From: Candidatus Eiseniibacteriota bacterium
GTDB lineage: Bacteria; Eisenbacteria; RBG-16-71-46; JABDJR01
Assembly (NCBI GenBank): GCA_963783375.1
Contig: CAWANH010000028.1
Coordinates: 1,120,001 to 1,184,000, forward strand
Length of the DNA: 64,000 nucleotides
Reading direction: 5' to 3'
Made by a program: the position numbers and the translations under genes. Of this stretch, positions 1-63,218 are shown in pieces (within the stretch, counting starts at the first letter, position 1; each line of letters starts with the position of its first letter). Below the pieces are notes generated by a model, which did not search any database, was not told the origin of the DNA, and saw only the letters and a list, made by a program, of their open reading frames with translations.

Positions 1-1392
1 GATCTGGCCCGGGACGGGAAGGGCCGGCCCATTCCCCTCTACAAACCGCTTCGCCACGACGAGTGCAGCGCCTGCCACCGCGATCCCCACGAGAACCGGC
101 TCGGGCCCGCCTGCGGCAAATGCCACGTCACCGAGGGGTTCAAGAAAACGGCCGCGGGGGGGTTCGATCACGGGGTCACCCGGTACCCCCTGGCCGGCCG
201 CCACGTCGGGCTGGAGTGCGCGAAGTGCCACGATCCGGTGAAGGCGTGGGGCAAGCGCCCGGCCTTTGCCCGCTGCGACGATTGCCACCGGGATCCCCAC
301 GCCGGTGAGACCCGCCTGGCCGGAAAACCCGCGGATTGCGCGGCCTGCCACGCCGTCTCGGGGTTCCGCCCCTCGACCTACACCGTGGACCGCCATCGCG
401 AAGCGGCCTACCCCCTGGAGGGAAAGCATCGCGGCGTGGAGTGTCGCGGGTGCCATCTCCTCAAGCCGGCGAAGGTGCCGGCGGAGAAGCTGGGAGCGGC
501 GGGGATCCTCATGCGCCCCCGCTTCGCCACCTGCCGCGACTGCCACGCCGAAGCGCACGACGGCCAGCTCACCGGCCGCGCCGACGGCGGCGCCTGCCGG
601 ACCTGCCACGCTCCCTCGGGCTGGAAACCGAGCCTCTTCACCGTATCGGACCACGCGACGCTCAAACTTGCGTTGGAAGGCAGGCACGAGGAGATCGCCT
701 GCGCCGCGTGCCACGGCCCCCGCCGCCGCGATCTTCCGGTTCTTCCCGGCCCCGACACCACCGGGACCGCCGGCGTGATGTTGGCGTTGGGGAGCGGCGC
801 GTGCGTGACCTGCCACGTCGACCCCCATTTCGGCCGCTATGATCGCCCCGCCGAGGCCTCGCCGCCGGGCGGTTGCCGCGCCTGCCATGCCGCCTCGACG
901 TTCCGCCCCGCGACCGTCGGCGTGGAAACCCACCGGGAGTATTCCTTCCCCCTGGAAGGGGCGCATCGCGCGGTGCCGTGCACCGGTTGCCACCGGGAAC
1001 TCATGCGGCCGCCCCTGTCCTCGACCTTGGTCGGCGCGGGGGTGAAGCTCGTCCCCCTCCGGTTCAACCAGCACCGAAGCGCCTGCCGGGATTGCCACGA
1101 CGGGCCCCACGGGACGCAGTTCGCGGTTAGGGCGGACAAGGGGGCCTGCGGGACTTGCCACGGGGTCGACGCCTTCGCTCCCGCGGACCACTTCGACCAT
1201 GACCGGGACACGGCGTTCGGCCTCCGAGGCGCCCACGCGAAGGTGGCCTGCGCCGAATGCCATCCCTCACGGAAAGACGCGGACGGAGTGGAGCGGATCC
1301 GCTACCGCCCTACTCCCACCGAGTGCGAGAGCTGTCACCGGGGCGGTCGGCCCGGGACGGGGTCCCGCCGGAACGGGGGGGGCGGATCATGA
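1..1392 (+). CDS. Multiheme c-type cytochrome, 5'-truncated by window edge (16 CxxCH visible)
   Basis: Frame is open from base 1 (DLARDGKG..CSACH..CGKCH..CAKCH) into ORF 238..1392, which has 13 more CxxCH; recurring H..(Y/F)PL.G.H...CxxCH modules; stop TGA overlaps next ATG (ATGA). Confidence 0.95.
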   Translation, partial: DLARDGKGRPIPLYKPLRHDECSACHRDPHENRLGPACGKCHVTEGFKKTAAGGFDHGVTRYPLAGRHVGLECAKCHDPVKAWGKRPAFARCDDCHRDPHAGETRLAGKPADCAACHAVSGFRPSTYTVDRHREAAYPLEGKHRGVECRGCHLLKPAKVPAEKLGAAGILMRPRFATCRDCHAEAHDGQLTGRADGGACRTCHAPSGWKPSLFTVSDHATLKLALEGRHEEIACAACHGPRRRDLPVLPGPDTTGTAGVMLALGSGACVTCHVDPHFGRYDRPAEASPPGGCRACHAASTFRPATVGVETHREYSFPLEGAHRAVPCTGCHRELMRPPLSSTLVGAGVKLVPLRFNQHRSACRDCHDGPHGTQFAVRADKGACGTCHGVDAFAPADHFDHDRDTAFGLRGAHAKVACAECHPSRKDADGVERIRYRPTPTECESCHRGGRPGTGSRRNGGGGS

Positions 1393-4300
1393 GAGGGTGG
1401 AACGGGTTCCTGGCTCGTCTGTGGTCCCGGCGTCCTGGTTGGCGGCTCATCCGCCCGGGGTTTGTGCTGGTCGGCGTGTTCATCGTCTTCGGGGGAGGGA
1501 TGATCTGGGATGCGGTCGGAGCGGGGGCGGACGATGACGAGCCCAAGTACCCGCACGGGTCGTTCCAGGCGGAGTGCAGCATGTGCCACTCCTCGGAGGG
1601 ATGGAAACCGGCACAGATCGGCAAGCAGTTCAAACACGAGAAATACGGGATGCCTCTCGACGGGGCGCACGCCGAGACGCCGTGCCTGTCCTGTCACCGG
1701 TCCCTGGAATTCGCGGACAGCGGCACGCAGTGCGCCGAGTGCCACCAGGACGTGCACAACAGCGAGTTGGGAACGGAGTGCGCGGATTGCCACACCACCC
1801 GGAGCTTCGGGGATCGATCCCGGATGGAGGACCTCCATCAGCTCACCCGGCTGCCCCTGACCGGCGCGCATGCCACGCTGGACTGCGCGGATTGCCACGT
1901 GTCGCAGGCGAAAGGGAAGGGGACCTTCGCCGGGGTGGCGGCGGAATGCGCGTCGTGCCACCTGGCCCGCTACGAGGCCGTGGAGGATCCTCCCCATGAG
2001 GCAGACCACTTCTCAACGGAATGCTCCCTCTGCCACGGCACGTCGAGCTGGAACGGCGGCGCCTTCGAGGCGGCCGGCCTGACGGAGTTCGATCACGGGG
2101 CGACGCTGTTTCCCCTGACCGGGGCGCACACCCGAACGGAGTGCATGACGTGCCATGGGGGTGGGGTATACCGGGGGTTGAGCACGGAGTGCGCAACCTG
2201 CCACCAGTCCGACTACGACGGGACCACGGACCCGGATCATCAGGCCGCCGGGTATCCCTTGGAGTGTGCGAATTGTCACGGCACTGAGAGCTGGTCGGGA
2301 GCGGACTTCAATCACGATGAGACCGGGTTCCCGCTCACCGGGGCTCATGTGGTCCAGCAGTGCCAGAGCTGTCACGGGGGTGGGGTGTACCAGGGGCTGG
2401 GCACGAAGTGCGCGACCTGCCACCAGACCGACTACAATGGGACGACCGAACCGGTGCATAGCGCGGCCGGGTTCCCGGTCACCTGCCAGGACTGCCACAA
2501 CACGACCAACTGGGACGGCGCGACGTTCGACCACAGCACCCAGACCCAGTTCCCCCTCACCGGCGCGCACGTCGCCCAGCAGTGCCAGAGCTGCCACGGG
2601 GGTGGGGTGTACCAGGGGCTGGGCACGGAGTGCGCAACGTGCCACCAGGCGGACTACGATGGGACGACCGAGCCGGTTCACAGCGCGGCCGGGTTCCCGG
2701 TGACCTGCCAGGACTGCCACAACACGACGAACTGGGACGGGGCGACGTTCGATCACGACAGCCAGACCCAGTTCCCGTTGACCGGGGCGCACATCACCCA
2801 GCAGTGCCAGAGCTGTCACGGGGGTGGGGTGTACCAGGGGCTGGGCACGGAGTGCGCAACGTGCCACCAGGCGGACTACGATGGGACGACCGAGCCGGTG
2901 CACAGCGCGGCCGGGTTCCCGGTGACGTGCCAGAACTGCCACAACACGACCAGCTGGGACGGGGCGGTTTTCGATCACGATAGCCAGACCCAGTTCCCGC
3001 TCACCGGCGCGCACGTCGCCCAGCAGTGCCAGAGCTGCCACGGGGGTGGGGTGTACCAGGGGCTGGGCACGGAGTGCGCAACCTGCCACCAGGCGGACTA
3101 CGATGGGACGACCGAGCCGGTTCACAGCGCGGCCGGGTTCCCGGTGACCTGCCAGGACTGCCACAACACGACGAACTGGGACGGGGCGACGTTCGATCAC
3201 GACAGCCAGACCCAGTTCCCGTTGACCGGGGCGCACATCACCCAGCAGTGCCAGAGCTGTCACGGGGGTGGGGTGTACCAGGGGCTGGGCACGGAGTGCG
3301 CAACCTGCCACCAGGCGGACTACGATGGGACGACCGAGCCGGTGCACAGCGCGGCCGGGTTCCCGGTGACGTGCCAGAACTGCCACAACACGACCAGCTG
3401 GGACGGGGCGACGTTCGATCACGACAGCCAGACCCAGTTCCCGTTCACCGGGGCGCACATCGCCCAGCAGTGCCAGAGCTGCCACGGGGGTGGGGTGTAC
3501 CAGGGGCTGGGCACGGAGTGCGCAACCTGCCACCAGGCGGACTACGATGGGACGACCGAGCCGGTTCACAGCGCGGCCGGGTTCCCGGTGACCTGCCAGG
3601 ACTGCCACAACACGACGAACTGGGACGGGGCGACGTTCGATCACGACAGCCAGACCCAGTTCCCCCTCACCGGGGCGCATATCGCGGCTCAATGCCAGAG
3701 CTGCCACGGCGGCGGGGTGTACCAGGGGCTGGGCACGGAGTGCGCGACCTGCCACCAGGCCGACTACGACGGGACCACGGATCCACCTCACGACCCGGCC
3801 GGGTTCCCGGTGACCTGCCAGGACTGCCACAACACGACGAACTGGGACGGGGCGACGTTCGATCACGACAGCCAGACCCAGTTCCCGTTGACCGGGGCGC
3901 ACATCACCCAGCAGTGCCAGAGCTGTCACGGGGGTGGGGTGTACCAGGGGCTGGGCACGGAGTGCGCAACGTGCCACCAGGCGGACTACGATGGGACGAC
4001 CGAGCCGGTGCACAGCGCGGCCGGGTTCCCGGTGACGTGCCAGAACTGCCACAACACGACCAGCTGGGACGGGGCGGTTTTCGATCACGATAGCCAGACC
4101 CAGTTCCCGCTCACCGGCGCGCACGTCGCCCAGCAGTGCCAGAGCTGCCACGGGGGTGGGGTGTACCAGGGGCTGGGCACGGAGTGCGCAACCTGCCACC
4201 AGGCGGACTACGATGGGACGACCGAGCCGGTTCACAGCGCGGCCGGGTTCCCGGTGACCTGCCAGGACTGCCACAACACGACGAACTGGGACGGGGCGAC

Positions 4301-7193
4301 GTTCGATCACGACAGCCAGACCCAGTTCCCCCTCACCGGGGCGCATATCGCGGCTCAATGCCAGAGCTGCCACGGCGGCGGGGTGTACCAGGGGCTGGGC
4401 ACGGAGTGCGCAACCTGCCACCAGACCGACTACGACGGGACGACCGACCCGCCCCACGATCCGGCCGGGTTCCCGGTGACCTGCCAGGACTGCCACAACA
4501 CGACGAACTGGGACGGGGCGACGTTCGACCACGACACCCAGACCCAGTTCCCCCTCACCGGGGCGCACGTCGCCCAGCAGTGCCAGAGCTGCCACGGGGG
4601 TGGGGTGTACCAGGGGCTGGGCACGGAGTGCGCGACCTGCCACCAGTCCGACTACGACGGGACGACCGAGCCGGTTCACAGCGCGGCCGGGTTCCCGGTG
4701 ACCTGCCAGGACTGCCACAACACCACGACCTGGGACGGGGCGACGTTCGACCACAGCACCCAGACCCAGTTCCCCCTCACCGGCGCGCATGTCGCCCAGC
4801 AGTGCCAGAGCTGCCACGGGGGTGGGGTGTACCAGGGGCTGGGCACGGAGTGCGCAACCTGCCACCAGACCGACTACGACGGGACGACCGAACCGGTGCA
4901 CAGCGCGGCCGGGTTCCCGGTGACCTGCCAGGACTGTCACAACACCTCGGCCTGGGACGGCGCGACGTTCGACCACGATACCCAGACCCAGTTCCCGTTG
5001 ACCGGGGCGCACATCACCCAGCAGTGCCAGAGCTGTCACGGGGGTGGGGTGTACCAGGGGCTGAGCACCGAGTGCGCGACCTGCCACCAGACCGACTACG
5101 ACGGGACCACGGACCCGCCCCACGACCCGGCCGGGTTCCCGGTGACCTGCCAGGACTGCCACAACACGACGAACTGGGACGGGGCGACGTTCGACCACAG
5201 CACCCAGACCCAGTTCCCCCTCACCGGGGCGCACATCACCCAGCAGTGCCAGAGCTGCCACGGGGGTGGGGTGTACCAGGGGCTGGGCACCGAGTGCGCG
5301 ACCTGCCACCAGTCCGACTACGACGGGACCACGGACCCGCCTCACGACCCGGCCGGGTTCCCGGTGACCTGCCAGACTGCCACAACACGACGAACTGGGA
5401 CGGGGCGGACTTCGATCACGATACCCAGACCCAGTTCCCGTTGACCGGGGCGCACATCACCCAGCAGTGCCAGAGCTGCCACGGCGGCGGGGTGTACCAG
5501 GGGCTGGGCACGGAGTGCGCGACCTGCCACCAGACCGACTACGACGGGACGACCGACCCGGCCCACGATCCGGCTGGGTTCCCGGTGACCTGCCAGTCGT
5601 GCCACAACACGACGAACTGGGACGGGGCGACGTTCGACCACAGCACCCAGACCCAGTTCCCCCTCACCGGCGCGCACGTCGCCCAGCAGTGCCAGAGCTG
5701 CCACGGGGGTGGGGTGTACCAGGGGCTGGGCACGGAGTGCGCGACCTGCCACCAGTCCGACTACGACGGGACGACCGAGCCGGTTCACAGCGCGGCCGGG
5801 TTCCCGGTGACCTGTCAGGACTGCCACAACACGACGACCTGGGACGGGGCGGTTTTCGATCACGACAGCCAGACCCAGTTCCCGCTGACCGGGGCGCACA
5901 TCACCCAGCAGTGCCAGAGCTGCCACGGCGGCGGGGTGTACCAGGGGCTGGGCACGGAGTGCGCGACCTGCCACCAGGCCGACTACGACGGGACCACGGA
6001 CCCGGCCCACGACCCGGCCGGGTTCCCGGTGACCTGCCAGGACTGCCACAACACGACGAACTGGGACGGCGCGACGTTCGACCACAGCACCCAGACCCAG
6101 TTCCCGCTCACCGGGGCGCATCATCGCGGTCCAATGCCTGAGCTGCCACGGCGGCGGGGTGTACCAGGGGCTGGGCACCGAGTGCGCAACCTGCCACCAG
6201 ACCGACTACGACGGGACCACCGACCCGGTGCACAGCGCGGCCGGGTTCCCGGTGACCTGCCAGGACTGCCACAACACGACGACCTGGGACGGCGCGACGT
6301 TCGACCACAGCACCCAGACCCAGTTCCCGCTCACCGGGGCGCATCTCGCGGTCCAATGTCTGAGTTGCCACGGCGGCGGGGTGTACCAGGGGCTGGGCAC
6401 CGAGTGCGCAACCTGCCACCAGGCCGACTACGACGGGACGACCGAACCGGTCCACAGCGCGGCCGGGTTCCCGGTGACCTGCCAGAACTGCCACAACACC
6501 ACGACCTGGGACGGCGCGACGTTCGACCACAGCACCCAGACCCAGTTCCCGCTCACCGGGGCGCATCTCGCGGTCCAATGTCTGAGCTGCCACGGCGGCG
6601 GGGTGTACCAGGGGCTGGGCACCGAGTGCGCGACCTGCCACCAGACCGACTACAATGGGACGACCGAACCGGTGCATAGCGCGGCCGGGTTCCCGGTGAC
6701 CTGCCAGAACTGTCACAACACCTCGGCCTGGGACGGCGCGACGTTCGACCACAGCACCCAGACCCAGTTCCCCCTCACCGGCGCGCACGTCGCCCAGCAG
6801 TGCCAGAGTTGCCACGGGGGTGGGGTGTACCAGGGGCTGGGCACGGAGTGCGCGACCTGCCACCAGTCCGACTACGACGGGACGACCGAGCCGGTTCACA
6901 GCGCGGCCGGGTTCCCGGTCACCTGCCAGAACTGTCACAACACGACGACCTGGGACGGGGCCACCTTCGACCATGACGCATCGTTCTTCCCGATCTACTC
7001 GGGGAGTCATAGTGGACGATGGAGCGATTGCACCGACTGTCACACCAACAACACGAATTACACCGATTTCACCTGCCTGAGCTGCCATCCGCACGATGAC
7101 AAATCCAAGACCGATGGGGACCATCGGGGCAGATCCGGATACCAATACGACAGCCAGGCTTGTTATTCATGCCATCCCCGGGGGAGCCACTAA
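1389..7193 (+). CDS. Giant tandem-repeat multiheme cytochrome c (~1934 aa, ~76 CxxCH); -1 indel at ~5375 and +1 indel at ~6122 as assembled
   Basis: ATG 1389 overlaps upstream stop; N-terminal hydrophobic segment (FVLVGVFIVFGGG); 7 N-terminal CxxCH + 22 repeats x 3 + 3 C-terminal. Pieces lie in ORFs 1257..5444, 4136..6679 and 6159..7193. Span is 5805 nt = 1935 codons, so the frame is restored net. Confidence 0.9.
2088..6974 (+). repeat. Intragenic tandem array of 22 units, ~222 bp (74 aa) each
   Basis: Consensus FDH(S/D)(T/S)QTQFPLTGAHxxQQCQSCHGGGVYQGLGTECATCHQxDYDGTT(EPVHSA/DPPHDP)AGFPVTCQ(D/N)CHNTTxWDGAT; the GGGVY codons recur at 2376, 2598, 2820 ... 6816, plus a diverged first unit at ~2157. 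Confidence 0.97.
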
Positions 7194-8821
7194 TGACTCG
7201 GTGGGCGAGCGCGGCGCTTACCGTGATCGCGACCGTGCTGGCCTGCCTGGGGGCGCCGTCCCCCGCCCCGGCTGCCGTCGACAACACCTCCATGGCCGAT
7301 AGCAGTGCCCACGTCACCTACGTCACCGGCGACTTGATCTATGTGGACGCGGGACGGCAGAGCGGCCTGGGGGAGGGTCTGGAGCTACAGGTCGAGCGGG
7401 ATGGGAAGGCGGTGGCCACGCTCAAGGTGGAGCACCTCTCCTCCCATCAGGCCTCGTGCTCCGTGATCGGAGATCCGGTCGAGGTGAAGATCGGGGATGT
7501 CGTCCGGTTCCGACCGGTTCCTGCCAAGACGACCGGCGAGAATCCGTCGCCGGCGGCGAGCCGGGCAAATCCCGGCCGGACCGGCTCGGTATCGACGATG
7601 CAGGCGCTCCGGGCCCTGGGTTTCCGGGGACGGGTCGGGGTCCGGTACCTCACCCTGATGGATCAGACCGGGTCCGGCGCCGGCTTCTCCCAGCCCGCGC
7701 TGGACCTCCGGGTGTCCGGGACCCGGATCAACGGGAGCGACCTGGACCTCTTGGTCGATGCCCGGGCGCGCCGTACCTACCGGACGGACGCGAACGGGGG
7801 GCAATCCAACGACGGACGGACCCGCTTCTATCGGCTGAGCCTCTCCCGCCGGGCCGAGGGCTCACCCCTGCGGCTGTCCCTGGGTCGGCAGGTATCCCCC
7901 GACCTGGCCTCGGTGAGCCTCTTCGACGGCCTCCTGGGGGAATACGCAAGACGATCCGTGGCCTTCGGGGTCTTCACCGGTACCCAACCCGATCCCAAGA
8001 CCTACGGCGCCTCGAGCGAAGTGTTCGAATATGGGGGCTATGCCCGGGTGCAGGGCGCGCAGGCCGGAGTGGGCCGTTGGGCGCTCACCGGAGGAGCCAT
8101 CCAATCGCTGGTGAGGGGAGCGGTGAACCGGGACTATCTCTTCCTACGCGGCCGGTACATGAACCGCCGGATGTTCGGGTACCTGACCCAGGAGATCGAC
8201 ATCAATCGCGGCTGGAAGGCGAAGGCCGGCGAACCCCTGCTGACCCCGACCAGCACCTACCTGAACCTCCGCTATCAGCCGGCACCGGCATTGAGTTTCA
8301 CCGCCGGCTTCGACAACCGCCGGAACGTCCGGCTCTATCGGGACCGCGATACGCCGGAGACGGTGTTCGACGACAGCTATCGCCGAGGGCTCCGGGGCGG
8401 GGTGAGCGTGCGCTTTCTGGACCGGTTCCGGGTTGGGGGAGACGCCGGGATCCGCGGCGGGGGCGGGAGCGGCGATTCGAAATCCTTCACCTTCACCACC
8501 CGCATCTCCCGGCTGTCTCCGCTGGCCGTCGATCTGAGCACCCGGCACACGCGCTACACCGGCCCACTCGCCGACGGCTGGCTGCACACGGTTCGGGCGG
8601 GCGGTTCGATCGGCAGGCGGAACCGACTGGAACTGCACGCGGGGGGGAAGCGGGAAGACCGGTTCACCGGACCCGAGACCTCGGCGCAGACGACGTGGCT
8701 CGGTGCCGACCTGGACCTCGGCATCGTGACCGGCTGGTACCTCCTTCTCTCGGGAGAGTCCACCCGGGGAGACGTCGAAAAGAACGACCAGGTCTACACC
8801 AGCTTGTCCTACCGGTTCTGA
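7193..8821 (+). CDS. Outer-membrane beta-barrel protein with N-terminal FlgT_C-like small beta domain; putative porin partner of the cytochromes
   Basis: ATG 7193 overlaps cytochrome TAA (TAATG); signal peptide; IYVDAG..GL..G..L.V.R...VA.L.V domain; amphipathic strands; ends SLSYRF (terminal Phe BAM signal). Confidence 0.8.
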   Translation: MTRWASAALTVIATVLACLGAPSPAPAAVDNTSMADSSAHVTYVTGDLIYVDAGRQSGLGEGLELQVERDGKAVATLKVEHLSSHQASCSVIGDPVEVKIGDVVRFRPVPAKTTGENPSPAASRANPGRTGSVSTMQALRALGFRGRVGVRYLTLMDQTGSGAGFSQPALDLRVSGTRINGSDLDLLVDARARRTYRTDANGGQSNDGRTRFYRLSLSRRAEGSPLRLSLGRQVSPDLASVSLFDGLLGEYARRSVAFGVFTGTQPDPKTYGASSEVFEYGGYARVQGAQAGVGRWALTGGAIQSLVRGAVNRDYLFLRGRYMNRRMFGYLTQEIDINRGWKAKAGEPLLTPTSTYLNLRYQPAPALSFTAGFDNRRNVRLYRDRDTPETVFDDSYRRGLRGGVSVRFLDRFRVGGDAGIRGGGGSGDSKSFTFTTRISRLSPLAVDLSTRHTRYTGPLADGWLHTVRAGGSIGRRNRLELHAGGKREDRFTGPETSAQTTWLGADLDLGIVTGWYLLLSGESTRGDVEKNDQVYTSLSYRF

Positions 8822-8845: not shown

Positions 8846-9337
8846 TCAGCGCACCTCGATGAGGACGGTTTCCCCGTCCACGCGCACCGGGTAGGGATGA
8901 ATGGGCCCGCCGGCGGGGCCGTCGAGCACCCTCCCCTCGTAATCGAAGAGGGACTTTCCCACGCTGCAGCACTGGAGGACCGGACCGTTCACGCAAGGGT
9001 CCAGCTTTCGCCCCCCGTGCGCGCAGCGGTTCTCGAATGCGTGATACCCGCCGTCGATCCCGTGGATGAGGAGCACCGGCGCCGGGAGCATCGGGCCCTC
9101 GATCCGGACCGCCCCGGCCCTCCGGTTCAGCTCCGAAATCCGGGTCACGTCCACCCGGATCGTGCCGTCGGCGAAGGCCCAGGAATCGGCATCGGCCGGG
9201 GGCTCGGTGGCGGGGATGCCGAAGATGCGCTGGAAGAGGTTTCTCCGGACGCAACTGATGGCGACGGGAGAGGGCGGATCGGCATTCGGCCCCTTGTCCG
9301 TCGCGCGTCGCTCAGCGATCAGGGGTTCCTTCATCAT
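8846..9337 (-). CDS. Rieske-fold [2Fe-2S] protein with atypical second box
   Basis: GGAGG before ATG 9337; AFENRCAHGG..L / LQCCSVGKSLFD..G.VL.GPA..PI..YPV matches Rieske layout, but box 2 lacks His. Confidence 0.75.
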   Translation of the reverse strand: MMKEPLIAERRATDKGPNADPPSPVAISCVRRNLFQRIFGIPATEPPADADSWAFADGTIRVDVTRISELNRRAGAVRIEGPMLPAPVLLIHGIDGGYHAFENRCAHGGRKLDPCVNGPVLQCCSVGKSLFDYEGRVLDGPAGGPIHPYPVRVDGETVLIEVR

Positions 9338-9572
9338 CGTCCCATCCTCCGTGCCATGGGGGTTTCGGGGGTGGCGGACCATGACCGTCAACCGCGGGAC
9401 GCCGGTGATCCGGGCGTGAACCCGCGCGTCGAAGGTACTCCACCACCGACGCCGGCGCAAAACGAATTCGATAACAAAGTTGTTTTGCGATCGTGTTTGT
9501 CCGATGAGCTGATCCAGGATCACCGACCGCGCCGCCGCCGAACAACCGGTCCCCGGGGAAACCGCGCGGCGA

Positions 9573-11129
9573 TCAGGAGGTGGGAAACACAACCCGACAG
9601 AGGCGGCTTCCCGACGCCCTCCGGATCAGGGTGAGGGCGGCGCCATCCTCCTCCAGACGGCGAATCAGCCATCGGGGCCGGGTCTCGTAGGTCCAGAAGC
9701 TCCGGTGGGCAAGGATGAAGGGCCGGTAGTCGGGGACGTCCAGGTCGACCACTTCCCCGACGATGCTGAGATTTCGCTCCGCAGTGTCGTCACCGGTGTA
9801 CTGAAGCGCCGCCTCGGGATCGTTGAGGTAGACCAAGCGATCGGCGATCGCCCGGGGCAGGTAGTGGCGGGCCTGGATGAACGCGTGCGGGTCGCCGACG
9901 GCGACCGGCGTTGGAGTCTCGGGGAGTGTGAGCAGAAGCGGATGCATGGCCAGCACGGCCGCCCGGGGGTCCTTGGGCGCCGCGACCGCCCTTCCCGCAT
10001 CCTTCAGCACCGCGAGGGAGATCATGAGGAGCAAGAGGACCGCCGTGGTCGTGCCTCCGCGCGAGAGCCGGCGGACCGCGATGGTGAAGAACACCGACAG
10101 TCCGATGATTGCCGGGATCCCGTACCGGAAGGTGTAGGTGCCGGTTTCGGCCATGGCGGTGAGTACCGCCGCCGCCGGGATGAGGACGAATCCACCGAGC
10201 GCGGCCAGCTCATGCGGGTTAAACCCGCCGCGCTTCGTTCGGGAGGGGATCGGCGGGTCGGAGCGGGTGAGCCGCAGGACGCCCACCACGATCGTCACCG
10301 CGACGAGGGTGACCAGGGCGGGACGGAGGAGCATTCCGTAGGTGCCGAGGATCTGCTCGGGGTGCGGGGGGGCCCAGGAGTGGGCGAAGAGCCGGGTCCG
10401 AACCGCCCGGATCACCGGAAGGAGCGGGATGAACGCGGCGAAGGGAAGAACCAGGGCCGCCGCGATCGCGCCGTCGAGCCGGCGCCGCTCCATCGTCCGC
10501 GCGAGTTCGCCCGACCCCAGGGCCACGATCGCGAAGACCGCGTAGTAGTGATTGGCTATGCCCAGAAAGAGGCCCAGGAAGAGCCCGGCCAGGCCGAGGC
10601 GCCGATGCCTGCCGGTGGCCGCTTCCTGCCAGGACAGGAGGGCGAGCCCGGCCAGGCCGAGCAGGATGCCATAGGGACGGGCCTCGTAGGCGTAGGGGTA
10701 GGCGCCGGTCTTGAGCAGGAAGAGAACCGTGATGAACCCGTAGATCGTTCCCAGGCGGCGGCGCGTGAAGGCGAAGAGGGCGAGCAGAAACGTGCCGAAG
10801 CCGAGCCATGCCGGGACCCGGACCGCGACCTCGCCGTCGCCGAGGGTCGCGTGAACGGCGTGGAGCAGGAACGCATGGAGCGGGGGGGCTCCGTCGACCC
10901 CGGCCAGAGACGCGCGCCACACCGCGGAGATGGAGGGGAGGCCGGCCACATAGAGAGCAATGATCTCGTCGTTCCAGAAGGGCTTCGCCGCCGCCCGAAG
11001 GACGGTGGTCAGCGTGTAGAGGAGGAGAAGCGCCGCCACCAGGGCCCCGGCGTGCCGCTCGACGAAGTCCGCCACCCGGTCCGCGGCGCGATTCAGGGTT
11101 CCGGTCCGACCGGGCGGGATTGCGTGCAT
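9573..11129 (-). CDS. GT-C (family 39 / ArnT-PMT-like) membrane glycosyltransferase
   Basis: W.DE motif after TM1, PPL, R.P, YAYEARPY, HYYA; many TM segments. Confidence 0.8.
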   Translation of the reverse strand: MHAIPPGRTGTLNRAADRVADFVERHAGALVAALLLLYTLTTVLRAAAKPFWNDEIIALYVAGLPSISAVWRASLAGVDGAPPLHAFLLHAVHATLGDGEVAVRVPAWLGFGTFLLALFAFTRRRLGTIYGFITVLFLLKTGAYPYAYEARPYGILLGLAGLALLSWQEAATGRHRRLGLAGLFLGLFLGIANHYYAVFAIVALGSGELARTMERRRLDGAIAAALVLPFAAFIPLLPVIRAVRTRLFAHSWAPPHPEQILGTYGMLLRPALVTLVAVTIVVGVLRLTRSDPPIPSRTKRGGFNPHELAALGGFVLIPAAAVLTAMAETGTYTFRYGIPAIIGLSVFFTIAVRRLSRGGTTTAVLLLLMISLAVLKDAGRAVAAPKDPRAAVLAMHPLLLTLPETPTPVAVGDPHAFIQARHYLPRAIADRLVYLNDPEAALQYTGDDTAERNLSIVGEVVDLDVPDYRPFILAHRSFWTYETRPRWLIRRLEEDGAALTLIRRASGSRLCRVVFPTS

Positions 11130-25448: not shown

Positions 25449-26594
25449 ATGGCCCGCCGCTCCCGCCTTGTCCTCTCCGTGTTCGCCTTGTCGCTCGTCT
25501 TCTGCGCCGCATCCGCCCTTGCCGATGACGGGCCGGGCGCGTTCTCCACCTCTTCCATTCACTCCGGGGGGCGCATGCGCTCCACCCACGGGGTTTTCTC
25601 CATCGCCGGCGGCGCCTATCCCGACGCCGAGCCCCGCTATCACAACGGGAGCGAGCTGGTGTGTGGGGACTGCCACGTCATGCACGCTTCCCAGACCCAT
25701 CCCTACGATCCGGCGGGCGCGAGGCCGGGGGAGGAGGTCCCCTACGCCGGAGGGCCCAACCCGAAGCTCCTGAAGGTCCCCGACCCTCTCGATCTCTGTC
25801 TCAACTGCCACGACGGCCGCACCTTCGCCCCCGACGTTCTCGGGGCGGACGTGAACGGCCTCGTCCAGCGCTCGGCGGGACACTTCGACGAGCCGGAGCT
25901 GGCCAACCCCCGCGGACACGACCTGGGCCGGGGCCTCCCCGACGCCGAGGGATTCGGCCTCTGCACGCGGTGCCACTTCTCGAGCGGCGAGGACGCCAAG
26001 GTCACCTGCATCGACTGCCACAACCCGCACGGGAACGGGGTGGCCCGGAACCTCCAGTGGGCGAGCGATCCCACGTCCACCCCGGACCTGGGGCTCTTCG
26101 TGAACCCGGGGGCGAGCGGGCTGGCCCGCTACGAGGCTTCGAACGTTTCCTTCGGGACCCTGAACACCGACCAGCTCCGCGAGGTCACCAACATCTGCCT
26201 CGACTGCCACCACATCTTCTCGGGGGAATCCTACATCGACCCCGACGGCAACGGGTTCCACAACCGCCATCCCACCTACGACAGCGAGCGCGGGTCGATC
26301 AACTCCATCAGCCAGGGGGACGCCGACGGGCGGACCAATTCCCCCCACTGGCTGGGAGGGACCGGGTCGGGGTTCATGGGGACGCCGCGGCTCCGCTTCG
26401 TGGCCTCCGGGGCCACCGACTTCGCCTCCGGGACGGTCGTGGACGCGGACAACGACGGGGTGTTCTGTTTGAGCTGCCACACCGCCCATGGAAGCGATCA
26501 GGCCTTCGCCCTGACCTGGACGCTCCAGGACGGATACGGCGCCCCCGGCTGCGACCAGTGTCACTACGTGGCCCAGGTGGACGCGGCCCCCTAG
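25449..26594 (+). CDS. Secreted 7-heme cytochrome c, OmcS-like motif architecture
   Basis: AGGAGG RBS; signal peptide ending ALA; CGDCH, CLNCH, CTRCH, CIDCH, CLDCH, CLSCH, CDQCH; YHNGSELVCGDCHVMHAS, CxxCHNPHG, RHP, VFCLSCHTAHGS. Confidence 0.9.
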   Translation: MARRSRLVLSVFALSLVFCAASALADDGPGAFSTSSIHSGGRMRSTHGVFSIAGGAYPDAEPRYHNGSELVCGDCHVMHASQTHPYDPAGARPGEEVPYAGGPNPKLLKVPDPLDLCLNCHDGRTFAPDVLGADVNGLVQRSAGHFDEPELANPRGHDLGRGLPDAEGFGLCTRCHFSSGEDAKVTCIDCHNPHGNGVARNLQWASDPTSTPDLGLFVNPGASGLARYEASNVSFGTLNTDQLREVTNICLDCHHIFSGESYIDPDGNGFHNRHPTYDSERGSINSISQGDADGRTNSPHWLGGTGSGFMGTPRLRFVASGATDFASGTVVDADNDGVFCLSCHTAHGSDQAFALTWTLQDGYGAPGCDQCHYVAQVDAAP

Positions 26595-59318: not shown

Positions 59319-62300
59319 CTACCGCACCAGCATGACCTTCTTGACCATCTGCTTTTCCCCGGCCCGGATCCGGTAGAAGTACATCCCGTTGGGGAGGGTG
59401 CGGCCGTTCTGGTCCCGGCCGTCCCACTGGATCGAGCCGTTGCCGTCGATCACCAGATCGTTGAGGCTCCGCACGCGCCGTCCCAGCACGGTGTAGATCT
59501 CCACCGTCACCGGCGCGCCCGCGGCCAGCCCCAGCACCCCGCCGTCGGCGGTTCCCGGGATGACCTCCTGGTCCCCCGGCTGCCCGGTCTCGTTGGACGG
59601 GTCCTGGTCCGGGTTCGATCCGTCGACGAAGTTCTCCCGGTCGTCGCCCCCCGCGCCGCCGTCGGTGATCACCAGCGGCACGCCGAGCCCCAGGATGTTC
59701 GACGCCAGGTAGTCGGTGCCGTCCGTCGCGGTGTAGTGGACGCCGATCTGGTTCTTGCCGGTCGAGGTCTTCCGGAGCGACCGCACCGCCGCCGCGTCAT
59801 AGGTCACCTCGAGGTCCAGCAACCCGTTCCGGTCCCCGTCCACCACCCGGGTCGAGGTCGGCCGAAGCGCCGCCACCTGGTTCCCCAGGTAGATCTGCCG
59901 CTCCGGGAGCCCCGTCGCGTCGAAGCCCGCCGTGGACGGCACCAGCACGGTCACCCACGTGGCCGAGGGATCGAACCCCCCGCCGTCCGCGGTGAACCCG
60001 GCGCAGGGGATCGCCCCGCCCGACTGGTCGTGAGGCACGCGCACGCACACCGTCGTCGTCGAGTCGTTCCCCGACATGTCCATCGCGGTGTAGGTGATCG
60101 TGTACTTGCGGCCGTTCCCGCCGCCCTGCCGCTCCGAGCGGAGGGAGAACGTGGTGTCCGGCGTCCCGAAGTCCGCGTCCTGGATGTCGTTGGGGAAGTT
60201 CCCGTCCCCGATGCCGTTGTCCGGCTCGTTGCTCACGATGGACACCAGCACGAAGGTCGGGTTCGGGTCGCAGACGTCGGTCACCGTGACCGAGGACTGG
60301 ATGGCCGACATCTTGTGGTTCGGCGGCCACAGGACGTCCCGGTCCAGGCTCACCGTGAGATCCGGCGGTGTGGTGTCCACCACCGTCACCGTGGCCGTGC
60401 AGCTGTCCACGTTCCCGTCGTCGTCGGTGCCGTAGAAGGTCACCGGGGTGGCCCCCAGCCCGAAGTAGTCCGGAGCGTTGTCGGTGATCACCGGGTTGGG
60501 GTCGCACGTGTCCAGCGCGGAGACCCCGGCGAAGAACGCGGTGAGCTGGGGATCGGTCCTGGGGGTCCCCATGTGCGAGGTGCACTCCACCGTGGTGTCC
60601 GGCGGACAGGTCACCACCGGGGGGGTGGTGTCCACCACCGTGATGTCCACGGTGTCGGTGTCCTGCTCCAGGCCGTCCGACACGGTCAGGGTCACCGTGG
60701 TGGTCCCCATGGGGAACTGGCCGGTCGGGGTCGCCGAGTGGTTGTCGTCGAAGGTGATTCCGGTCGCGTTCCAGGTGTAGGTGAGCGCGTCGCCGTCGGC
60801 GTCCGAGGATCCGGTGCCGTCGAGCTGGACCGCGGTGGTCGTGTAGGACGCGCACTCCACCGTGGGCTGGTCGGGACCGGCGTCGGCCACCGGCGGGGTG
60901 TTCACGGTCACCGCGAAGTTCTCACCCAGGTAGGGCCCGGTGGCCGGACCCTGGATGTTGCTCCCCTCCACCGCCCAGAGCATCTGGTGCCCGGAGGCGA
61001 GCAGGGTCTGGAGCTGGGTGTTGGTGAGCGAAGCGGAAGTGGACCCCGTGGGAATCGACAGCACCTTGGCGAAGGTGTTGGCGTTGTAGAACACCAGGGT
61101 ATAGGCGTCCCCGGTGTAGGACGAGGGGCACCCGACCCGGCCGGTCCAGCTGAAGTTCGCGTTCCCCGAGGAAACGATGGTGTTCGGGGCCGGGCTGTTC
61201 AGGGTGGGACCCACCTGGTGGTCCGAGGCGATCCCGCCGTAGGCCAGGTCCTGCTGGTTGGTGAGCCCCGCGCGGAGGAGGCCCCATCCGCCGGAGAGGG
61301 TGGTGACGTTGGTGTTCTTCAAGATATTGAAGATCGTCTGATCCGAGATCGATACGTTGTCCCGGCCGTCGGAGATCGTGTCCTCCAGGTCCCAGAGCAT
61401 GCGTTGCACCGCAAGCTCGTTGTCCTCGCCGCGGCCGTTGTTGTCCTGGGTGTCGAGGCCGTAGGAGAAATTGCTCTCCCCGGTGTCGGCGTAGATCGCG
61501 TCCCCCACCCGGGGAACGTTGAGGGAGGACAGCCCCTGGAGCACCTGGGCCGAGGTCCCGAAGAAGGTGGGCCATCCCTCGCCCCAGGCCAGCCGGACGC
61601 CCTCGCTCTTGCTGCCGTGGACGTTGGCGATGCAGTCCCCGATGTTGTGGGGTCCGCCGGGGTTGTTCTCGAAGTTGAAGGTGTCCTGGACGTAGTGGCT
61701 GTACTCGTGGAACATGACGTCCCAGTCCCACTGGTCGCCGGGACGGAGGTTGATGCGGCTACCGTTGTAGTTGGCGGATCCGGTGTCCCCCGGCCATTCC
61801 AGCCGGATGTGCCCCAGGAACGAGTTGCCGTTCTTGAGCGCGGTGTAGTTGGCCATCCAGGTGGCGCCGGTCAAGAGCCCGGCCGCCGGCCCGGTGCCGG
61901 TGTTGGCGGCGGTGAAGTTCTCGATGATCACCGCGTTGTCGGACACGTCGTCGTGGGTCGGCGAATCGGCCTGGTAGGCGTCGTGGAAGACGCCCTGGTT
62001 CTCGATCGACACCGCGCCGTTCCCGGTCCGGAACCGGACGAAGATGTCCCGTCCGCCCTGGCCGATCCCGTCGTCGTTGTTCACCACGAAGTTGTAGTTC
62101 CCGTCGGGTCCGGTAATCAAGTCCGCCACCAGGTCGGAGCCGATCAGCTCATCGTCCCGGACCTCGACGTGCATCCCGTAGCAGGGATGGCTCAGGCCGT
62201 TCTCGTCCAGCCAGCTCACGTTCCCCTGCACGGTGACGTTTCCGGCCGGGGAGACCGGCTCGGCCTGAAGCGGTTGCTCGTCGCCGGCATAGGCGGGCGG

Positions 62301-62954
62301 AGGAGCCGAGCTCATCAGGTTCGGAACCGGGTTCACCGACGAACGCAGTCCCGGGTCGCTGTCGAACTGCGCGGGAATCTCGGTGACTTCCTTGAGTTGC
62401 GACTTGGCCTCCTCCACGGTCAACGCCCCGGACTGGTAGCCGTCCTGGACGTCCTGGATCTCCAGGTTGAGGAAGCTCCCCATCCCGGCCAGGCTGCGGT
62501 CGGGGCGGAGGATGGCGTAGAAGCCTTCGGTCCGCTCTCCGTTCGTCCCCGCCGAGGCCTCGTCGGCGATCGCCCGCACCAGCACCTCGGCCTTGCCCTG
62601 GGCGGTGTAGCGCACGGGAACCTGGAAGGTGATGGAACCGCCCGCGGAGACCGACCCCAGGTCGAAGGAGGCGGGTCCGAGCAGCTCGACCGGCCCCTGG
62701 GTGAAGAGCGATACCTGGAAGGCGTCGAAGTCGGCGTCGGCGTCGATGGATCCCTCCAGGGTCACCGTCGCTCCGGGAGCGATCGCATTCGCGGGTGCGG
62801 AAAGGGTGATCCCGTAGGGGACGCCGATGCTTGCCGTACAGATGTAGGGGTCGGCGTCCGACGGAGCGGGCGGCCCGGCAAAGGCCGCCGGGGCCGCGGC
62901 GATCGCGGCGCCCGCGAAGAGCAGGCACAGAAATCGTGACCTGGGGTGCAGCAT
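59319..62954 (-). CDS. Large secreted multidomain protein: zincin-like HEYSH domain, PKD, HYR-like, WPPNHK domain, FlgD-Ig C-terminus
   Basis: AGGAGG RBS, signal peptide, FHEYSH..AW.EGW, PVADAGPD/LDGTGSSD.DG, DTTPP repeats, WDGRD..G..L..G.YFYR. Confidence 0.85.
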   Translation of the reverse strand: MLHPRSRFLCLLFAGAAIAAAPAAFAGPPAPSDADPYICTASIGVPYGITLSAPANAIAPGATVTLEGSIDADADFDAFQVSLFTQGPVELLGPASFDLGSVSAGGSITFQVPVRYTAQGKAEVLVRAIADEASAGTNGERTEGFYAILRPDRSLAGMGSFLNLEIQDVQDGYQSGALTVEEAKSQLKEVTEIPAQFDSDPGLRSSVNPVPNLMSSAPPPAYAGDEQPLQAEPVSPAGNVTVQGNVSWLDENGLSHPCYGMHVEVRDDELIGSDLVADLITGPDGNYNFVVNNDDGIGQGGRDIFVRFRTGNGAVSIENQGVFHDAYQADSPTHDDVSDNAVIIENFTAANTGTGPAAGLLTGATWMANYTALKNGNSFLGHIRLEWPGDTGSANYNGSRINLRPGDQWDWDVMFHEYSHYVQDTFNFENNPGGPHNIGDCIANVHGSKSEGVRLAWGEGWPTFFGTSAQVLQGLSSLNVPRVGDAIYADTGESNFSYGLDTQDNNGRGEDNELAVQRMLWDLEDTISDGRDNVSISDQTIFNILKNTNVTTLSGGWGLLRAGLTNQQDLAYGGIASDHQVGPTLNSPAPNTIVSSGNANFSWTGRVGCPSSYTGDAYTLVFYNANTFAKVLSIPTGSTSASLTNTQLQTLLASGHQMLWAVEGSNIQGPATGPYLGENFAVTVNTPPVADAGPDQPTVECASYTTTAVQLDGTGSSDADGDALTYTWNATGITFDDNHSATPTGQFPMGTTTVTLTVSDGLEQDTDTVDITVVDTTPPVVTCPPDTTVECTSHMGTPRTDPQLTAFFAGVSALDTCDPNPVITDNAPDYFGLGATPVTFYGTDDDGNVDSCTATVTVVDTTPPDLTVSLDRDVLWPPNHKMSAIQSSVTVTDVCDPNPTFVLVSIVSNEPDNGIGDGNFPNDIQDADFGTPDTTFSLRSERQGGGNGRKYTITYTAMDMSGNDSTTTVCVRVPHDQSGGAIPCAGFTADGGGFDPSATWVTVLVPSTAGFDATGLPERQIYLGNQVAALRPTSTRVVDGDRNGLLDLEVTYDAAAVRSLRKTSTGKNQIGVHYTATDGTDYLASNILGLGVPLVITDGGAGGDDRENFVDGSNPDQDPSNETGQPGDQEVIPGTADGGVLGLAAGAPVTVEIYTVLGRRVRSLNDLVIDGNGSIQWDGRDQNGRTLPNGMYFYRIRAGEKQMVKKVMLVR

Positions 62955-63218
62955 GGGGGGATTCCTCCTGGATGGTGTGGGTTCCCGGCGGCGAAGTGCG
63001 GTCACCACCGGAACCCTTATCAAATCAGATCAGAACGGTATTTTGCAAGTCTATTCAATTTCTCTGCAAATCCAGGCCATTTCAGTGCTTCGGCTTGTCG
63101 CGGAGTCTCCGGTCCAACTCGAATTTCCAACCCGCACTCGGTCTCATCGTCACGGAAACCCTTGGATTTCCAGTCGGTTGTGTGACTTGAGGATCTCATC
63201 GGGCCGTCCGGATCCGAC

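What the first reader, a model, noticed from the sequence alone, without database searches (positions are those of the whole stretch)
1..8821. Translationally coupled cytochrome-cytochrome-porin operon: candidate new electron-conduit architecture
Seen: three same-strand genes joined by overlapping stop/start codons (ATGA at 1389-1392, TAATG at 7191-7195). They encode a cytochrome with at least 16 CxxCH, one with ~76 CxxCH, and a beta-barrel ending in YRF. Known: porin-cytochrome conduits (MtrCAB, Geobacter Pcc/Ext) pair multiheme cytochromes with a barrel. Inference: this is an extracellular electron transfer conduit with over 90 hemes. It uses an FPL.GAH tri-heme module, not the MtrA decaheme pattern, and a ~540-aa barrel with an extra N-terminal domain, in a probably little-studied lineage.
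Basis: partly seen in the sequence, partly recalled or inferred. Interest (0 to 1): 0.88.

Follow-up and report, generated by a model that had tools for sequence, protein, structure and literature searches.

The report
Five-gene, 99-heme electron-conduit operon
The three genes are the tail of a five-gene operon, shared across several little-studied bacterial phyla, that likely wires cytoplasmic NAD(P)H to the cell surface through 23- and 76-heme cytochromes and an outer-membrane pore; it is a distant branch of the published but untested "PCC3" clusters, and the 76-heme gene carries two frameshifts that are probably assembly errors.

Summary
Real, but larger and less new than proposed. Both gene overlaps are there. 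The first cytochrome has 23 CxxCH (16 inside the window). The second totals 76 (75 intact, one broken) but is split by two one-base indels, probably assembly errors. The barrel folds as a 22-stranded pore with no plug domain.

Two more coupled genes lie upstream: a five-helix membrane protein with both PCC3 heme-b motifs and a membrane-anchored Fe-S/FAD/NAD(P) oxidoreductase. All 68 barrel homologs with enough upstream DNA have a cytochrome next to them. The first cytochrome keeps 20 or 23 hemes; the second runs from 10 to 85 in steps of three. Carriers are Ca. Eisenbacteria (the likely host), Gemmatimonadota, Acidobacteriota and Bacteroidota.

It is not MtrCAB. It works like, and is partly homologous to, PCC3 (He 2017): membrane protein and first cytochrome clearly, barrel remotely. 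It forms a separate branch with a different repeat in the long cytochrome. A 20+61-heme Bacteroidota cluster, probably this type, was noted in 2026. This scan reported the same operon type on other genomes. Function, direction and topology are untested.

The parts
1..1392 (+). 3' part of cytochrome A (MHC-A). The whole gene starts 683 bases before the window (G000:C28:1119317-1121392): 691 aa, 23 CxxCH, Sec-type signal peptide, no lipobox seen; predicted periplasmic. Two further operon genes lie wholly upstream of the window and cannot be given in its coordinates: the inner-membrane protein IMP (C28:1117017-1117871, about 284 aa, five predicted helices, predicted di-heme b) and the oxidoreductase OXR (C28:1117881-1119320, 479 aa: membrane anchor, zinc ribbon, 2x[4Fe-4S], thioredoxin-reductase-fold FAD/NAD(P) domain without cysteines), whose stop overlaps the start of A.
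   Evidence: A: (49 His, 46 Cys); homologs have 20 or 23 hemes in 56 of 58 rows; 29% identical over its length to a 24-heme PCC3-type cytochrome, E 8e-64. IMP: SGxxG and two WX3HX13H motifs, five hydrophobic segments, no Pfam family. OXR: Pfam Pyr_redox_3 E 3e-41 and Fer4 families, nearest NCBIfam YpdA below cut-off, nearest solved chains 7a76/7a7b, no Cys after residue 200.
1389..7193 (+). Cytochrome B (MHC-B): 1934 residues and 76 CxxCH if read through two indels (7-heme N-terminal part, 22 tri-heme repeats, 3-heme C-terminal cap); N-terminal signal or anchor, no lipobox seen.
   Evidence: family rule 3n+1; zero-repeat 10-heme forms exist.
2106..6987 (+). Array of about 22 head-to-tail 222-bp (74-aa) units; the unit at 2547 has 3 CxxCH, 3 further His, no Lys/Arg and 8 Asp/Glu.
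   Evidence: 19 units aligned; two pairs identical at 1110-bp spacing; 535-bp exact match at offset 1110; mean DNA identity 0.91 within this gene, 0.74 to the units of G001.
5373..5375 (+). One base missing relative to the 18 other aligned units; breaks a CxxCH and shifts the frame.
   Evidence: short-read contigs laid here show a base put in at 5374-5377, though other repeat copies also map.
6122..6123 (+). One extra base relative to the other units; restores the original frame.
   Evidence: not checked against reads.
7193..8821 (+). Outer-membrane barrel, 542 aa: signal peptide, small beta domain (about 37-106), linker, 22-strand barrel (144-541) with no plug domain.
   Evidence: AlphaFold2 mean pLDDT 89.4, 22 strands counted from the listed elements; best structural match is the barrel of a TonB-dependent transporter, Z 18.9, rmsd 4.3, 358 aligned; FlgT_C weakly in 15 of 92 homologs.

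Best explanation
The five genes form one operon that likely builds an electron wire across the whole cell envelope: a membrane-anchored FAD/iron-sulfur enzyme would take electrons from cytoplasmic NAD(P)H, a predicted di-heme b membrane protein would carry them over the inner membrane, the 23-heme cytochrome would span the periplasm, and the 76-heme cytochrome, probably held in the 22-strand barrel, would take them to acceptors outside such as Fe(III)/Mn(IV) oxides, humics or other cells. Shown: gene order and coupling, motif counts, domain content, conservation across phyla, fixed length of cytochrome A against variable length of cytochrome B, homology to PCC3-type loci. Predicted: barrel fold; bis-His ligation (six His per three CxxCH). 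Inferred: who contacts whom, that B is the barrel partner and reaches outside, outward direction, the acceptor, and that the two indels are assembly errors. The length of B changes by gain and loss of whole three-heme units.
For: Coupling of all five genes: gap 9 nt, then overlaps TTGA, ATGA, TAATG. Of 80 barrel loci, 68 had 900 nt or more upstream and all 68 have 3 or more CxxCH there; of 49 with 7 kb upstream, 43 have the IMP and 41 the OXR (30 in line upstream, 11 on the other strand). IMP has five helices and both HX13H motifs. A has 20 or 23 hemes in 56 of 58 rows; capped B has 10-85 hemes, 49 of 52 rows being 3n+1, and 76 fits that rule. At about 1 nm per heme (MtrA about 100 A for 10 hemes, quoted in PMC5566968) A matches a periplasm and B could not fit in one if straight (inference). 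Six loci carry barrel plus B without IMP or A, and the minimal B has 10 hemes, the size of MtrA. Intact long B genes exist: 61 hemes in same-genus G001, 85 in G034. The assembly has background frameshifts: 20 of 207 G002 frames change frame in G000, about 11 of them cleanly inside conserved matches, and one COX1-family gene is split. CcmABCDEF-like genes are present. OXR homologs also sit head-to-head beside PCC3-type loci.
Against: I found no experiment on this family, and PCC3 is untested ('function has not been tested', 10.1101/2025.02.27.639646; the PCC3 extracellular cytochrome Slit_1448 was not detected in a proteome, PMC11429942). B has no lipobox and no export route beyond the periplasm is shown. 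One locus (L020) has A directly before the barrel with no B. 8 of 49 loci show no OXR. Same-genus G003 (98% complete) keeps only a barrel fragment with no cytochrome in the 20 kb fetched, and 39 of 61 genomes searched had no barrel match, so the system is dispensable. Two indels in 5.8 kb exceed the background of roughly one per 24 kb. The genome has oxygen-reductase-family genes and the one cultured carrier I found is a Cytophagales strain from warm spring water, so anaerobic metal respiration need not be the use.
Confidence: 0.55

Rival explanations
1. Same wire, opposite direction: electrons come in from Fe(II), reduced humics or partner cells and reach quinone or NAD(P)+, as proposed for PCC3 in iron oxidisers.
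For: PCC3 was found in Fe(II) oxidisers and modelled as uptake (PMC5566968); the parts are homologous; sequence does not fix direction.
Against: NAD(P)+ reduction from Fe(II) is uphill without a coupling module, and none is in the operon (established thermodynamics). A probably matching 20+61-heme cluster is in an organism proposed to export electrons (PMC13013709).
Confidence: 0.14
2. Cytochrome B stays in the periplasm, coiled, as an electron store (capacitor) for redox swings; the barrel admits a soluble acceptor or only anchors the cytochromes.
For: Both cytochromes have Sec-type leaders and no lipobox; length varies eightfold among relatives, which suits storage; capacitor roles are proposed for such proteins (PMC11495043; PMC7399161).
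Against: The barrel lacks a plug domain and sits next to a cytochrome in 68 of 68 informative loci; conserved N-terminal part and C-terminal cap on B suggest docking at both ends.
Confidence: 0.12
3. In this genome the long cytochrome gene is truly broken: it gives a 1351-residue, 51-heme product without the cap, and the operon is decaying or phase-switched.
For: Two indels in the assembly, above the background rate; the operon is lost in a same-genus genome; tandem repeats recombine.
Against: No stop codons or decay in the out-of-frame 750 bp, whose proper frame is intact with 9 CxxCH; the other four genes are whole; contigs crossing 5374 show the missing base and no listed piece matches the assembly across it without a gap (19 of 72 pieces shown); near-identical repeats are hard to polish (established).
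Confidence: 0.09
4. A non-respiratory reductase system in the manner of ferric reductase / NADPH oxidase or MsrQ with its flavin reductase (comparison recalled): NADPH is spent to reduce surface metal for uptake or detoxification, without energy gain.
For: IMP has the HX13H pairs of the ferric-reductase transmembrane domain (PMC5566968); OXR is a thioredoxin-reductase-fold enzyme nearest to NADPH-type reductases.
Against: 99 hemes are a very large iron cost for an uptake system (inference); in the annotated Emticicia locus the only transporters are a cation transporter and MgtA about 7 kb from the barrel gene.
Confidence: 0.1

Closest known systems
PCC3 porin-cytochrome gene cluster (He et al. 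2017, PMC5566968; Gallionellaceae pangenome, PMC9900912; Burkholderiales 24+49-heme clusters, PMC7399161)
   Same: Order IMP - periplasmic cytochrome - giant repeat cytochrome - porin; IMP motifs; first cytochrome homologous over its length; second cytochrome of variable length, up to 85 hemes; porin remotely homologous; an OXR homolog nearby; untested.
   Different: Outside Proteobacteria; separate branch in the IMP tree; 20/23 rather than 21/24/27 hemes in the first cytochrome; the second cytochrome uses FPLxGxH tri-heme units and a distinct cap, not the PCC3 repeat; porin about 540 aa with an FlgT_C-like domain, not 700-840 aa; OXR mostly inside the operon rather than divergent.
Lentimicrobium 20+61-heme porin cluster (PMC13013709)
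   Same: Heme counts fit this family's 20 / 3n+1 signature; low-GC metagenome loci and Emticicia carry this operon.
   Different: [quoted passage not shown]
MtrCAB / MtoAB / PioAB
   Same: Barrel plus multiheme cytochromes; the minimal B has ten hemes like MtrA.
   Different: No MtrB_PioB Pfam match; TIGR03509 in 1 of 92 homologs at E 0.004; MtrB structure ranks 34th (Z 13.9, rmsd 6.5, 342 aligned); no DmsE/MtrA match near cut-off; no lipoprotein MtrC.
Cytochrome + HX13H membrane protein + redox protein clusters without porin (PMC5566968 Supplementary Table 6)
   Same: The same inner trio; the Bradyrhizobium BTAi1 plasmid locus (Fe-S protein, 'iron reductase', 7-heme cytochrome) weakly matches the N-terminal part of A.
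   Different: No giant second cytochrome, mostly no porin; 7-18 hemes.

Membership tests
PCC3 | Inner-membrane protein of about 300 aa, five helices, SGxxG on helix 4, WX3HX13H on helices 3 and 5 | tested here: met
   family profile hits IMPs of PCC3-type loci at E 1e-29 to 1e-39.
PCC3 | Periplasmic repeat cytochrome with about 21-27 hemes and 22-39 residues per heme | tested here: met
   23 hemes, 30 residues per heme, signal peptide; 29% identity over its length to a 24-heme PCC3-type protein, E 8e-64. The count class differs (20/23).
PCC3 | Second, larger, repeat-built cytochrome of variable heme number | tested here: met
   76 CxxCH, 25 residues per heme; 10-85 in homologs.
PCC3 | Second cytochrome belongs to the same sequence family as the PCC3 extracellular cytochrome | tested here: not met
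   Only patchy similarity (best E 4e-11); the cap profile does not match the second cytochromes of PCC3-type loci; their repeat differs beyond the first module.
PCC3 | Large beta-barrel porin homologous to PCC3 porins | tested here: inconclusive
   Barrel met. Homology remote: narrow alignments 7%; broader ones 75.8% local and 96.6% global over 388 columns, against 0.4% and 2.2% for reversed rows. Reference Sideroxydans ES-1 sequences were not on hand; PCC3-type loci were recognised by layout and by Gallionellaceae-named porin homologs.
PCC3 | Gene order IMP, periplasmic cytochrome, extracellular cytochrome, porin | tested here: met
   Same order with OXR inserted after the IMP; order of Slit_1446-1449 in PMC11429942.
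PCC3 | Falls within the proteobacterial PCC3 clade | tested here: not met
   IMP tree of 99 rows, quick method: 15 rows with 21/24/27-heme partners form one side of a branch (SH-aLRT 100, stem 1.62); 68 rows with 20/23-heme partners, including this one, lie on the other; 16 rows unlabelled; midpoint root only.
PCC3 | Second cytochrome is extracellular | not testable with these tools
MtrCAB/MtoAB/PioAB | MtrB/PioB-family porin | tested here: not met
   No PF11854 match in the barrel, in 92 homologs or in the genome; TIGR03509 in 1 of 92 at E 0.004.
MtrCAB/MtoAB/PioAB | DmsE/MtrA-family decaheme | tested here: not met
   TIGR03508 18.5 bits against a cut-off of 192 for the N-terminal part of B; not listed for A.
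Geobacter Pcc/Ext conduits | OmbB/ExtB/ExtI-family porin with small periplasmic and about 12-heme outer-membrane cytochromes | tested here: inconclusive
   No NCBIfam match for the barrel and heme counts differ, but no OmbB model was run; PMC7399161 found a PCC3-like porin with an OmbB model, so remote kinship is open.
PCC4 | Three periplasmic cytochromes with 4, 5 and 10 hemes | tested here: not met
   Two cytochromes with 23 and 76 motifs against the definition in PMC5566968.

The most novel reading that the evidence does not exclude
A self-contained NAD(P)H-to-outside wire that bypasses the quinone pool and ends in a single-chain nanowire whose reach (10 to 85 hemes, up to perhaps 60-80 nm) is tuned by recombination of a 222-bp unit, the chain being threaded through and held by its own unplugged 22-strand barrel. 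It would be an overlooked extracellular electron route in soil, sediment and sludge phyla not counted as electroactive, testable in a cultured strain (Emticicia oligotrophica DSM 17448, plasmid-borne).
Probability: 0.25. Interest if true: 0.8.

Novelty: new variant of a known kind. Interest (0 to 1): 0.48.

Why it matters
Known nanowires are polymers of small cytochromes; to my knowledge a one-chain wire whose length is set by repeat number has not been shown. This branch extends PCC3-like conduits to Ca. Eisenbacteria, Gemmatimonadota, Acidobacteriota and Bacteroidota, where Mtr-based screens would miss it (no Pfam or NCBIfam model for the barrel; none above cut-off for the membrane protein). 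The in-operon NAD(P)/FAD/Fe-S enzyme names a likely cytoplasmic end for a conduit class whose inner link was only guessed. Natural zero-repeat 10-heme forms and a plasmid copy in a cultured strain make structure and genetics feasible. Against that: giant-cytochrome porin clusters with up to 85 hemes are in print since 2017, so size and layout alone are not new.

Tried and rejected
Fold of the 10-heme B: pLDDT 53, too poor to search. Solved-structure sequence searches: nothing for the C-terminal part of B or the IMP; one weak hit (E 0.15) for the barrel profile's N-terminal domain. Foldseek put ushers first with poor fits (TM 0.3-0.4, rmsd 10-20); I do not read this as an usher. Viral collections: no barrel, OXR or motif. 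No RNA holder listed. Promoter scan upstream of the IMP: none. A first whole-DNA frameshift count timed out. Circular permutation of the OXR: the segment before the first Rossmann motif found no solved match and only a weak one (E 2e-4) at the C-terminal end of another flavoprotein; left as a lead. The upstream ATG at 1257 for B was set aside because it lies inside gene A and homologs have short leaders. ESM Atlas: nearest clusters are unnamed. The second indel was not checked against reads.
Full report
OBSERVATION. The overlaps ATGA (1389-1392) and TAATG (7191-7195) are in the sequence. The window lies at G000:C28:1120001-1184000 in a 4.73-Mb, 69% GC genome; negative positions below lie upstream of the window. 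Gene 1 (cytochrome A) begins at -683 and has 23 CxxCH in 691 aa. Gene 2 (cytochrome B) is not one open frame: 51 CxxCH in frame 0 up to about 5374, 9 in frame 2, 15 in frame 0 again up to the TAA at 7193. Aligning 19 of the 222-bp units shows one base missing at about 5374, which destroys one CxxCH, and one extra base at 6122-6123. Read through, the gene spans 1935 codons with 76 motifs. Gene 3 is 542 aa and ends YRF.

ARE THE INDELS REAL? Probably not. Of 207 coding-like frames of same-genus G002 (17 stretches of 20 kb; 87,076 aligned residues), 20 change frame in G000; by my reading about 11 do so cleanly inside conserved matches, the rest being opposite-strand duplicates or gapped. One COX1-family gene is also split. 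That is roughly one break per 24 kb, so two in 5.8 kb is above background, though near-identical repeats polish badly (established). Contigs laid on the first indel show a base put in at 5374-5377 in three of four runs, and none of the 19 listed pieces (of 72) matches the assembly across the site without a gap; other repeat copies map too, so this is not decisive. The second indel was not checked with reads. The out-of-frame stretch shows no decay, and 76 fits the family rule below.

THE OPERON HAS FIVE GENES. Upstream lie a membrane protein (IMP, likely -2983 to -2129) and an oxidoreductase (OXR, -2119 to -680), 9 nt apart, the OXR stop overlapping the start of A. The IMP has no Pfam family but five hydrophobic segments, SGxxG at 194 and WX3HX13H at 154 and 327: on helices 4, 3 and 5, as described for PCC3/PCC4 IMPs, which were proposed to bind two b hemes (PMC5566968, passages). 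OXR has a membrane anchor, zinc ribbon, two Fe-S motifs and a thioredoxin-reductase-fold FAD/NAD(P) domain nearest to YpdA/Bdr but without cysteines. The repeat unit of B at 2547 has six His for three CxxCH, enough for bis-His ligation, and is acidic; A is basic. The barrel model (pLDDT 89.4) has a small N-terminal beta domain and 22 strands from 144 to 541; its best structural matches are barrels of TonB-dependent transporters (Z 18.9, rmsd 4.3, 358 aligned), with MtrB lower (Z 13.9, rmsd 6.5); it has no plug domain. CcmA-F-like genes lie at C28:1856-1861 kb, most below curated cut-offs.

DISTRIBUTION. The barrel family is large: 288 hits among 7998 scored candidates, 3185 cluster representatives at E 0.001. 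It was found in 22 of 61 genomes of the same class, G000 included. Named records are Ca. Eisenbacteria, Gemmatimonadota, Acidobacteriota, one Krumholzibacteriota and one Anaerolineales contig; a plasmid of Emticicia oligotrophica DSM 17448 has ccsA and the same five genes with 23 and 40 hemes. The window's IMP is sister to that of a Ca. Eisenbacteria genome (SH-aLRT 100), so the host is likely of that phylum. Of 80 loci, 12 had too little upstream DNA; all other 68 have a cytochrome next to the barrel. Of 49 with 7 kb upstream, 43 have the IMP and 41 the OXR. A has 20 or 23 hemes in 56 of 58 rows. B with the C-terminal cap has 10-85 hemes, 3n+1 in 49 of 52 rows; at least two rows are the same locus fetched twice, and capless B forms (for example 17 hemes) and contig-cut genes were left out of that count. 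The zero-repeat form has 10 hemes, so this gene is 7 + 22x3 + 3. Units are 91% identical within this gene and 74% to those of G001, with a 535-bp exact match at 1110-bp offset: recent expansion or homogenisation. Against strict linkage: L020 has A directly before the barrel; G003 keeps only a barrel fragment.

COMPARISON WITH WHAT IS KNOWN. PCC3 is a porin, an extracellular cytochrome (median 34, up to 85 hemes, repeat-built), a periplasmic cytochrome (median 21) and an IMP, in Proteobacteria (PMC5566968, section 15 read whole; supplements 1, 5 and 7 read as text, the PCC3 table itself being unreadable). Gallionellaceae forms have 21/24/27 and 10-35 hemes (PMC9900912, passages); length variation by whole domains was noted for 24+49-heme Burkholderiales clusters (PMC7399161, passages and section 18). 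I had no reference PCC3 sequences. Homologs of one such porin are named Gallionellaceae, Gallionella, Sideroxydans and Sideroxyarcus, so I take the second class as PCC3. Profiles from this family hit its IMP (E 1e-29 to 1e-39), OXR (about 1e-140 when whole) and the N-terminal domain of its first cytochrome; A aligns over its length at 29%. B does not: only patchy similarity, another repeat, no cap match. The barrels are remote kin at best: 7% with narrow alignments, 75.8% local and 96.6% global with broader ones, 0.4% and 2.2% against reversed rows; in the own genome the profile's best other hit, 18 bits, is a frame beside two further cytochromes and the rest score under 8 bits. In a quick IMP tree the two classes are the two sides of one long branch. 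So it works like PCC3 and shares ancestry with it, but fails two membership features and is better called a sister branch. It is not MtrCAB or PCC4; kinship to OmbB is open.

IN PRINT? Nine searches found no paper that defines this branch or the OXR link; the library lacks most subscription journals, and supplements of the surveys below were not read and may list members. [quoted passage not shown] Also seen without bearing on the family: PMC7914226 and PMC4245776 (passages), PMC11475568 (first third). PCC3 function is untested (10.1101/2025.02.27.639646, passages; PMC11429942, passages). Earlier notes of this scan describe the same operon type in other genomes and the OXR beside PCC3; I had reached the reading before seeing them.

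MECHANISM. Most likely (0.55): NAD(P)H to FAD and Fe-S in OXR, to two b hemes in the IMP, along A across the periplasm, to B held in the barrel, out to an insoluble or large acceptor. The fixed length of A suits a fixed gap; the free length of B suits a part with no such limit; six loci pair the barrel with B alone. Contacts, topology, direction and acceptor are inferred. The comparison with MsrQ and NADPH oxidase is recalled, not tested. Rivals are inward flow, a periplasmic capacitor, a non-respiratory reductase and a broken copy.

VERDICT. A real, conserved operon; a new variant of a known, untested kind. Interest 0.48.

Noticed in passing
G000:C29:1455490-1475702 (mostly in L120): A second large multiheme cluster (11, 6, 10, 42, 6, 6, 4 and 6 CxxCH) without the FPLxGxH motif; the genome has 36 frames with 3 or more CxxCH, 393 motifs in all.
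   Followed up: no
G000:C1:16691-20690: 10- and 13-heme cytochromes beside a 442-aa frame that scores 18 bits with the barrel profile: perhaps another porin-cytochrome locus with a remote relative of this barrel.
   Followed up: partly
L001:8322-8500 (OXR residues about 148-205): A segment resembling the usual C-terminal FAD-binding part of thioredoxin-reductase-fold enzymes (likeness recalled) lies before the first Rossmann motif in 48 of 48 OXR-like frames with all three motifs: possible circular permutation. A second protein with this order is at G000:C28:1529563.
   Followed up: partly
window 25449-26594 (+): A 381-aa secreted-looking protein with 7 CxxCH, paired-CxxCH family, below cut-off for named cytochrome families.
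   Followed up: partly
window 8846-9592 (-): A small Rieske-domain frame converging on the barrel gene; link to the operon not examined.
   Followed up: no
L022 (G004:C3:865500-885400): A relative whose whole operon, barrel included, is broken into many frames, as expected of an unpolished long-read assembly.
   Followed up: no
L027, L028, L030, L033 (G055, G020, G046): Remote barrel homologs (25-29% identity) with 12-19-heme cytochromes upstream (three of the four also with a 17-heme one), no IMP or OXR match, and other 5-13-heme cytochromes next to them: a further variant.
   Followed up: no
L158 and L181: An extra B-type cytochrome (up to 45 hemes) directly after the barrel gene; L061 and L095 also have a further cytochrome downstream.
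   Followed up: no
window 59319-63023 (-); G000:C28:1096982-1100335 (+): Large secreted-looking proteins; the two upstream ones end in a shared 'TTWGRLKxQYH' tail, which I recall as a sorting-like motif common in this lineage.
   Followed up: no
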